8,722 nucleotides of DNA from a virus (lineage: Duplodnaviria > Heunggongvirae > Uroviricota > Caudoviricetes), in IMG/VR virus record IMGVR_UViG_2526164674_000023; one strand, given 5' to 3'. Numbering within the stretch: position 1 is the stretch's first letter; each line of letters begins with the position of its first letter. The notes below the pieces were generated by a model, which worked only from the letters and a program-made list of their open reading frames with translations, was not told where the DNA came from and searched no databases. The position numbers and the translations under genes are program-made. This document shows positions 1,548-2,086 of this stretch, one piece after another.

Positions 1548-2086
1548 CTATTGTTGAACTGGATTAAACCAGTAATTCTCTATTGCTCTTATTGTTACCA
1601 TCGGATGATTGCCGGGGGTTATTTTAAGTTCGGGAGGAAAAGGCTCTCCATCAGCAGCCATCATTGAGTATGTGAAATCCGCCGACGCAGTCCCTTTCAT
1701 GATAATTCCGAATTTTTCAAGTAATGAGAGCAGTTCCGGTAATCCTGTGTCATCTGAATAACTTTCCTCATAGAAAGAAGCGATTGCCGCAGGAGATGAC
1801 AGTTCTCGCTCTGCAATTTTTTTGTAGTTTTCCAGAATTCTTTTTTTGAATACTTTTCCTCGACATGAAAACCCATCACCGAGGCAATCCGCTTTGCAGT
1901 TTCTTCAGTATTCTGGTTGTTTGTTACCGAAACAGAGTACAATCCGGTAAACGCATCGCGCACATTACGAGCCATATTATCAATGTATTTCTTCGTTGCA
2001 GATTCTAATTCAACTTCGTTCAGACGTTGGTGAAGTGCATGTGCTGCAATTTCCTGGATTTCTTTTAGTAAATCTTTAAATTCCAT
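1548..2086 (-). CDS. hypothetical protein with reading frame interrupted at an A7 run (N-terminal part = ORF 1697..2086; C-terminal part continues in the -1 frame to a stop at 1548..1550)
   Basis: ATG at 2086..2084 with GGAG 7 nt upstream. Frame A gives MEFKDLLKEIQEIAAHALHQ...FHVEEKYSKK. At the minus-strand A7 run (plus-strand T7 at 1841-1847) the -1 frame is open for about 100 further codons with protein-like composition (FKKRILENYKKIAERELSSPAAIASFYEESYSDDTGLPELLSLLEKFGII...IENYWFNPVQQ*). That frame has stops just upstream of the run and no start codon, which is why no ORF appears in the track. Either a frameshift pseudogene, an assembly error, or a programmed -1 frameshift. Confidence 0.5.

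What the first reader, a model, noticed from the sequence alone, without database searches (positions are those of the whole stretch)
1548..2086. Gene split at an A7 run with a dnaX-like slippery heptamer (A AAA AAA G) and upstream GAGG: programmed -1 frameshift, pseudogene, or homopolymer error
The 129-aa ORF (1697..2086) has, exactly at the homopolymer (minus-strand codons tcA AAA AAA Gaa; plus-strand T7 at 1841-1847), a -1 frame that runs about 100 codons further to a stop at 1548 with clearly protein-like sequence. That frame has stop codons shortly upstream of the run and no start codon, so it can only be expressed as a trans-frame fusion of about 180 aa. X XXY YYZ with all A is a known -1 slippery motif; the E. 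coli dnaX site is A AAA AAG, where an SD-like element about 10 nt upstream stimulates slippage. Here GAGGA ends about 9 nt upstream of the heptamer. The alternatives are a genuine inactivating frameshift or a sequencing/assembly miscount of the homopolymer.
Basis: partly seen in the sequence, partly recalled or inferred. Interest (0 to 1): 0.6.

Follow-up and report, generated by a model that had tools for sequence, protein, structure and literature searches.

The report
Prophage gene broken by one-base deletion
A small prophage gene of unknown function in Shiga-toxin E. coli has lost one A from an eight-A run, so it now makes a shortened protein; this is an ordinary frameshift mutation, not a programmed recoding signal or a sequencing error.

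Summary
The split is real. On the minus strand a 129-aa ORF (2086..1697) is followed by a -1 frame that stays open to 1548. It is at a second, in-phase A7 run 24 nt downstream (1817-1823). Eight diverged homologue lineages (63-94% identity, 177-186 aa) read both sites as one continuous ORF. The closest intact allele (P0001) is identical across both runs and their flanks except for A8 instead of A7 at run 2. Among 5,426 complete E. coli genomes, 386 carry this allele: 384 match the A7 version exactly and none has A8 or A6, so it is not an assembly error. A further 26 genomes carry intact alleles. The GAGGA plus A7 at run 1 also occurs in intact alleles, where it simply encodes E-E-K-Y-S-K-K. 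Downstream folding is no better than shuffled sequence. Published E. coli data give about 0.4% slippage for unstimulated A_AAA_AAA. Best reading: a fixed A8-to-A7 deletion truncates a two-module protein after its N-terminal module, with at most trace read-through. This is ordinary and of low interest.

The parts
1697..2086 (-). Frame-0 ORF of 129 aa (RefSeq WP_000394511.1, 'hypothetical protein'). Residues 1-90 are native and residues 91-129 are an out-of-frame tail.
   Evidence: alignment with intact proteins
2093..2096 (-). GGAG Shine-Dalgarno of the gene. It ends 6 nt before the ATG at 2086-2084.
   Evidence: read directly
1817..1823 (-). Run 2: A7 on the coding strand (acA AAA AAA ttg). 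This is the actual frame break. Intact alleles P0001, P0002 and A19 have A8 here.
1841..1847 (-). Run 1: A7 (tcA AAA AAA gaa), encoding Ser-Lys-Lys in frame. It is unchanged (A7) in five of the eight intact sequences compared and is A6 (TCG AAA AAA) in the other three (A19, P0004, P0008).
1857..1861 (-). GAGGA, SD-like, 9 nt upstream of run 1. It is part of the Glu-Glu-Lys codons and is present in intact alleles too.
1548..1816 (-). -1 frame segment (89 codons plus stop) that encodes the C-terminal module in intact homologues. It is not translated in this allele except through rare slippage.

Best explanation
The gene is a frameshift-truncated allele of a 179-aa, two-module prophage protein of unknown function. 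It sits in the early leftward operon ydfA-ydfB-[this gene]-dicF-dicB of a Qin-like lambdoid prophage of STEC. Slipped-strand loss of one A in an A8 tract (ACA AAA AAA ATT became ACA AAA AAA TT, plus 1817-1823) moved the C-terminal module into the -1 frame. Ribosomes now read 39 out-of-frame codons and stop at 1697, giving a 129-aa protein that keeps the conserved N-terminal module. The lesion is in the DNA and fixed in this allele, which has spread among many STEC lineages. Shown here: the deletion, its position, that it is real, and that the downstream frame codes in relatives. Inferred: that the C-terminal module is essentially not made (at most about 1% through spontaneous ribosomal or RNA-polymerase slippage at the two A7 runs), and that the loss is tolerated because the N-terminal module can function alone.
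For: Continuous homologues: nine protein clusters of 177-186 aa at 63-94% identity. Annotated single CDSs in strains A19 and ETEC6333. Five intact IMG/VR loci. Codon-level comparison of eight intact lineages shows all read YSKKEFWK...IAER in one frame. P0001, found in three independent Illumina-derived assemblies, is identical to the window from about 130 nt upstream to 40 nt downstream of run 2 except A8 versus A7. Restoring one A at run 2 gives EFWKTTKKIAERE, exactly as in P0001. Census of complete E. coli genomes: 386 carry the allele, 384 match A7 exactly, none has A8 or A6; 25 carry the ETEC-type intact allele and 1 the A19 intact allele. The downstream segment is under purifying selection among intact alleles, dN/dS 0.19-0.24. 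Hints of relaxed constraint in the split allele: R163M in the window and T157P in variant P0122, both at residues invariant in nine intact homologues. Folding around and downstream of the runs is no better than shuffles, z = -0.41, 0.01 and 0.03. The N-terminal module stands alone in many 50-130-aa proteins.
Against: The downstream frame is still entirely open (118 codons), and no A7-to-A8 reversion was seen in 386 genomes. Both facts also fit a maintained recoding site, although recency explains them equally well, since the copies are at least 99% identical. Both A7 runs are in-phase A_AAA_AAA heptamers and run 1 has an SD-like GAGGA at a permissive spacing, so some full-length protein is probably made. 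No expression data were available. With only 2 synonymous and 2 non-synonymous differences from P0001 downstream of the break, selection after the frameshift cannot be measured.
Confidence: 0.85

Rival explanations
1. Functional recoding. The A7 allele is kept because low-level -1 ribosomal frameshifting or insertion of an extra A by RNA polymerase, at either of the two tandem in-phase A_AAA_AAA runs (helped by GAGGA 9 nt upstream of run 1), yields a useful ratio of truncated and full-length protein, as in dnaX or tssM1.
For: Two in-phase slippery heptamers lie 17 nt apart, and there is no -1 frame stop between them, so a shift at either reaches the C-terminal module. GAGGA lies within the 6-17 nt range used to search for SD-like stimulators. 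The downstream ORF is intact and the allele is widespread. A_AAA_AAA is used by IS600, and slippage rescue of an interrupted gene is documented for tssM1.
Against: The arrangement is not conserved: every diverged homologue is one ORF. GAGGA + run 1 are present in intact alleles, are explained by the conserved peptide EEKYSKKE, and are absent in A19 and P0008. There is no stimulatory structure above chance, and the small hairpin is also present in the intact A8 allele. A_AAA_AAA gave 0.405% without a stimulator and 0.819% with the IS911 stimulators. Documented transcriptional slippage sites use 9-11 A, not 7. The split lineage shows substitutions at invariant C-terminal residues.
Confidence: 0.08
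2. Sequencing or assembly miscount of the homopolymer: the true sequence is A8 and the gene is intact.
For: Homopolymers are error-prone. One assembly (GCA_008122345) shows A6 here, and a few relatives show shifts at run 1.
Against: 384 of 386 complete genomes match A7 exactly over 79 nt, and none has A8 or A6. They span many serotypes, laboratories and years. Five IMG/VR contigs are also identical. The A6 assembly has other split genes in the same locus (YdaT split in two, RelE not called), which is typical of uncorrected long reads.
Confidence: 0.01
3. Phase-variable contingency tract: the A-run switches reversibly between A7 (off) and A8 (on) within populations.
For: A8, A7 and (doubtfully) A6 versions exist in related sequences. 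Published analysis finds A7/T7 runs strongly under-represented in E. coli genes and cites high indel mutation rates as one possible reason.
Against: There is no length polymorphism among 386 genomes carrying the allele. The A8 version sits on a distinct haplotype with a different 5' end. From general knowledge, tracts of 7-8 A are short for efficient switching in mismatch-repair-proficient E. coli.
Confidence: 0.05

Closest known systems
Homopolymer-tract frameshift pseudogenes or truncated alleles in cryptic and resident prophages (for example the ydfE pseudogene of K-12 Qin in the same operon type)
   Same: A single-base length change in a mononucleotide run breaks an accessory prophage gene, and intact alleles persist in related prophages.
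   Different: Here the lesion is the only one in an otherwise intact early region. The truncated product keeps a complete conserved N-terminal module, so it may not be a null allele.
E. coli dnaX programmed -1 frameshift (A_AAA_AAG, upstream SD-like element, downstream stem-loop)
   Same: An A-rich in-phase heptamer decoded by tRNA-Lys, with an SD-like GAGGA about 9-10 nt upstream of run 1.
   Different: The heptamer is A_AAA_AAA rather than A_AAA_AAG. There is no stimulatory stem-loop. The arrangement is not conserved in homologues. A shift here would lengthen rather than shorten the product. The actual frame break is at the other run.
Citrobacter rodentium tssM1 (interrupted gene rescued by transcriptional slippage on an A11 run; PMC4256274)
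   Same: A gene is interrupted next to a poly-A tract, and adding an A to the mRNA would restore the full-length protein.
   Different: tssM1 has 11 A and about 20% measured rescue, with both forms required. Here the run is only 7 A and nothing has been measured.
IS3-family (IS600) A_AAA_AAA -1 frameshift sites
   Same: The same heptamer.
   Different: The IS sites depend on a downstream stem-loop or pseudoknot and are conserved across the family. Neither holds here.
K-12 Qin ydfC
   Same: The same slot between ydfB and dicF.
   Different: No detectable sequence similarity. This is positional analogy only.

Membership tests
Programmed -1 ribosomal frameshift site (dnaX / IS3 type) | In-phase slippery heptamer X_XXY_YYZ | tested here: met
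   Both runs read A_AAA_AAA in frame 0: tcA AAA AAA g and acA AAA AAA t.
Programmed -1 ribosomal frameshift site (dnaX / IS3 type) | Two-frame gene arrangement conserved in diverged homologues | tested here: not met
   Eight intact lineages at 63-94% identity are single ORFs. The split occurs only in one allele whose copies are at least 99% identical.
Programmed -1 ribosomal frameshift site (dnaX / IS3 type) | Downstream stimulatory RNA structure | tested here: not met
   MFE z-scores against dinucleotide shuffles are -0.41, 0.01 and 0.03. The modest hairpin is also present in the intact A8 allele.
Programmed -1 ribosomal frameshift site (dnaX / IS3 type) | Upstream SD-like stimulator at 6-17 nt | tested here: inconclusive
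   GAGGA lies 9 nt upstream of run 1. It encodes conserved Glu-Glu, is present in intact alleles, and is absent in A19 and P0008. There is none upstream of run 2.
Programmed -1 ribosomal frameshift site (dnaX / IS3 type) | Trans-frame protein detectable at a meaningful level | not testable with these tools
   Needs a reporter assay, western blot or proteomics. The literature value for unstimulated A_AAA_AAA is 0.405%.
Frameshift-mutated (truncated) allele caused by homopolymer slippage | Intact allele with identical flanks and a run length differing by one base | tested here: met
   P0001 loci L006-L008 have A8 against A7 in the window, with surrounding sequence identical.
Frameshift-mutated (truncated) allele caused by homopolymer slippage | Lesion is in the DNA, not an assembly artefact | tested here: met
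   384 of 386 complete genomes match A7 exactly, and none has A8 or A6.
Frameshift-mutated (truncated) allele caused by homopolymer slippage | Downstream frame is real coding sequence in relatives | tested here: met
   dN/dS is 0.19-0.24 among intact alleles, and 85 invariant residues span the nine-protein alignment.
Frameshift-mutated (truncated) allele caused by homopolymer slippage | Relaxed constraint on the stranded segment | tested here: inconclusive
   R163M (window) and T157P (P0122) fall at invariant residues. There are only 4 differences in total from P0001.
Transcriptional-slippage recoding (tssM1, mxiE, T. thermophilus dnaX) | Long A/T run (9 or more in documented cases) | tested here: not met
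   The runs are A7. Documented cases use 9 A and 11 A.
Phase-variable contingency locus | Run-length polymorphism among otherwise identical copies | tested here: not met
   None of 386 genomes differs in run length.
YdfC (K-12 Qin) | Sequence homology | tested here: not met
   BLASTP finds no alignment at E <= 100.

The most novel reading that the evidence does not exclude
The A7 allele could be a recent 'rescued indel'. Two tandem in-phase A_AAA_AAA heptamers, plus the SD-like GAGGA, would let about 1% or more of ribosomes or transcripts reach the C-terminal module. The prophage would then make mostly an N-module-only protein and a little full-length protein, and that ratio would be selected, which would explain the allele's spread through STEC lineages.
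Probability: 0.07. Interest if true: 0.4.

Novelty: new member of a known kind. Interest (0 to 1): 0.12.

Why it matters
The main value is for annotation. The 129-aa 'hypothetical protein' WP_000394511.1, annotated in the copies of this locus examined here (about 386 complete STEC genomes carry the allele), is the front part of a frameshifted 179-aa gene, and the 50-aa ORF sometimes called downstream is its stranded tail. The case is also a caution. Lys-rich coding sequence readily yields in-phase A_AAA_AAA heptamers with purine-rich SD-like neighbours, so a dnaX-like look is not evidence of recoding without conservation of the split. The gene lies just upstream of DicF/DicB, and its function is unknown.

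Tried and rejected
- **Function from profile libraries:** Pfam gave no hit above 14 bits. PHROGs gave only families of unknown function.
- **Function from structure:** AlphaFold2 on a nine-sequence alignment gave mean pLDDT 50. That is too poor for a fold search, so none was run.
- **Deeper homologues:** A profile search of 1.84 billion representatives found no further full-length family members and only one distant C-terminal-module relative, P0136.
- **Species-representative genomes:** The protein-pattern scan found nothing. An 18-nt DNA pattern returned only chance matches in unrelated phyla.
- **Deposited phage genomes:** They hold only about 31%-identical relatives of the N-terminal part, in Stx phages. 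The DNA search matched only the ydfA/ydfB flank.
- **K-12 ydfC as homologue:** Rejected.
- **A6 variant as natural polymorphism:** Rejected, because that assembly shows other split genes in the same locus.
- **Prior candidate lists:** The gene is not among the conserved-heptamer prophage candidates of Sharma et al. 2014.

Full report
**Observation.** On the minus strand, an ATG at 2086 preceded by GGAG (2096-2093) opens a 129-aa ORF that ends at 1697. The -1 frame is open for 118 codons and ends at 1548. From base composition, a 100-codon open stretch has a chance probability of about 0.008. GAGGA (1857-1861) ends 9 nt upstream of it.

**Context.** The window is part of a lambdoid prophage found identically in many STEC genomes, including O157:H7, O121:H19, O103 and O111.
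- The local gene order is: cI/DicA-like repressor, RelB-RelE pair, ydfA (DUF1391), ydfB, this gene, DicF sRNA, dicB, a DUF1482 gene, exonuclease, integrase. DicF lies at 937-988 on the minus strand (Rfam, 76.9 bits).
- This is the layout of the K-12 Qin ydfABC-dicF-dicB operon.
- The gene occupies the ydfC slot but has no similarity to YdfC.
- RefSeq annotates the 129-aa ORF as a hypothetical protein, WP_000394511.1.

**Where the frame breaks.**
- A distant DNA search found two diverged full-length copies. Strain A19 (85% identity) and ETEC6333 (80% identity) are each annotated as one continuous CDS that ends at or beyond the position corresponding to the stop at 1548.
- The alignment puts the single-base gap in run 2. 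A19 has GCAAAAAAAATT (A8) where the window has ACAAAAAAATT (A7). ETEC6333 has GCCAAACGCATC, with no run at all.
- The closest cluster, P0001 (94% identity, 179 aa), occurs in three independent assemblies of public Illumina runs. Its DNA is identical to the window from about 130 nt upstream to 40 nt downstream of run 2, except that it has A8 rather than A7. Run 1 is A7 in both.
- Adding one A at run 2 gives ...EFWKTTKKIAERE..., exactly the P0001 peptide. Repairing at run 1 instead gives RILENYKK, which no homologue has.
- A codon-by-codon table of eight intact lineages shows that all read Y/F-S-K-K-E-F-W-K through run 1 in frame 0 and continue in the same frame to I-A-E-R/Q.
- The lesion is therefore an A8-to-A7 deletion at 1817-1823.

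**Real, not an artefact.** I queried 5,426 complete E. coli genomes with 78-80-nt probes carrying A6, A7 or A8 at run 2.
- 386 genomes carry this allele.
- 384 match the A7 probe exactly. The other two each score 98.7% identity; the one listed (H215) spans the same 79 nt in the record, so it is a substitution rather than a length change.
- None matches the A8 or the A6 probe exactly.
- Five IMG/VR contigs are also identical to the window.
- One draft assembly (GCA_008122345) has A6. In the same locus YdaT is split in two and RelE is not called, which is the signature of homopolymer errors.
- Intact alleles exist in 26 complete genomes: 25 of the ETEC type and A19.

**Is it programmed?** The defining features were tested one by one.
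- **Slippery heptamers:** present and in phase at both runs.
- **Conservation of the split:** absent. Only one near-clonal allele is split, and every diverged relative is continuous.
- **GAGGA + A7 at run 1:** also present in the intact 186-aa alleles, where no shift is needed. The conserved peptide E-E-K-Y-S-K-K-E explains it. A19 and P0008 lack the GAGG, and A19, P0004 and P0008 have A6 at run 1.
- **Downstream RNA folding:** the 64 nt after run 1, the 64 nt after run 2 and the whole 108-nt region gave z-scores of -0.41, 0.01 and 0.03 against dinucleotide shuffles. The small hairpin after run 2 is also present in the intact A8 allele.
- **Expected efficiency:** Sharma et al. 2014 (PMC4066793) measured AAAAAAA at 0.405% without a stimulator, 0.819% with the IS911 stimulators and 24.8% with the IS3 pseudoknot. 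Background without a stimulator was 0.055%. That paper lists this gene in none of its conserved-motif prophage clusters.
- **Transcriptional slippage:** documented recoding sites use 9 A (T. thermophilus dnaX) or 11 A (C. rodentium tssM1, about 20% rescue). Here the runs are 7 A.
- **Inference:** a little full-length protein, of the order of 1% or less, is probably made by spontaneous slippage at either run. No -1 frame stop lies between the runs, so a shift at either one reaches the C-terminal module. Nothing indicates that this read-through is selected.

**What the protein is.**
- Pfam gives nothing, and PHROGs gives only families of unknown function (phrog_1363, phrog_2151).
- The first 55 aa or so (MEFKDLP...NVRDAFTGLY) form a module shared by more than 60 clusters (at 50% identity) of small prophage proteins. 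Many of these are only 50-130 aa long, and others carry unrelated C-termini, such as the 212-aa Ybl81-like proteins.
- The C-terminal module, from about residue 81 (KKEFW...), is nearly an orphan. The only distant relative found among 1.84 billion representatives is P0136.
- Among intact alleles the C-terminal module evolves under purifying selection, with dN/dS 0.19-0.24.
- Synonymous divergence differs five- to eight-fold between the two halves in several allele pairs, which indicates recombination near the module junction.
- The frameshift sits at this junction, so the 129-aa product keeps the whole N-terminal module plus a 39-residue nonsense tail. This may explain why the lesion is tolerated.
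- The AlphaFold2 model was too uncertain to use (mean pLDDT 50).

**After the frameshift.** Downstream of the break the window differs from P0001 by 2 synonymous and 2 non-synonymous changes. One of them, R163M, hits a residue invariant in all nine intact homologues. A variant of the stranded 50-aa ORF, P0122, carries T157P at another invariant residue. This fits relaxed constraint, but there are too few changes for a test.

**Verdict.** The finding is real but ordinary. The dnaX-like features are coincidental consequences of Lys- and Glu-rich coding sequence. Assembly error is excluded. Functional recoding is not excluded but is unlikely (about 0.07-0.08), and a simple reporter assay would settle it.

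Noticed in passing
window 937-988 (-), and 563-751 (-): A full-length DicF sRNA (Rfam RF00039, 76.9 bits against a gathering score of 48) lies about 560 nt downstream of the frameshifted gene, followed by dicB. The gene of the finding is therefore part of a Qin-like ydfA-ydfB-X-dicF-dicB operon.
   Followed up: partly
window 2661-3139 (-): A RelB/PaaA2-type antitoxin gene (2948-3139) and a RelE/ParE toxin gene (2661-2948) sit between the cI/DicA-like repressor gene (3167-3568) and ydfA. This pair is absent from the same position in strains A19, ETEC6333 and K-12 Qin, so it looks like a moron-type insertion in the immunity region.
   Followed up: partly
window 1920-2086 (-) (first ~55 codons of the gene): The N-terminal module MEFKDLP...NVRDAFTGLY recurs in more than 60 clusters (at 50% identity) of small prophage proteins. 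It occurs alone (50-130 aa) or fused to unrelated C-termini, such as the 212-aa Ybl81-like proteins and phrog_2151. Its function is unknown.
   Followed up: partly
window 1548-2086 (-) compared with L002, L003, L006: The alleles are mosaic. Against ETEC6333, dS is 0.18 upstream and 1.31 downstream of the module junction. Against A19 the pattern is reversed (0.83 and 0.11). This implies recombination near the junction where the A-runs lie.
   Followed up: no
relatives P0017, P0018, P0016: Other members of the family carry frame changes at run 1 (YSKKNSGK...), in Logan assemblies and in an older draft assembly (E. coli TA280). These are either further homopolymer mutations or sequencing errors, and I did not resolve which.
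   Followed up: no
window 5639-5646 (+): An A8 run, the longest homopolymer in the window, lies inside the intact 400-aa replication-protein ORF (4988-6190), next to a QEQEQEQEKEQEQ low-complexity stretch. It is a potential slippage hot spot.
   Followed up: no
window 1548-1700 (-): The stranded C-terminal segment contains an internal ATG that mechanical ORF callers report as a 50-aa ORF (MKGTASADF...). The same ORF appears in the protein collection as P0122. No SD-like sequence precedes the ATG.
   Followed up: partly
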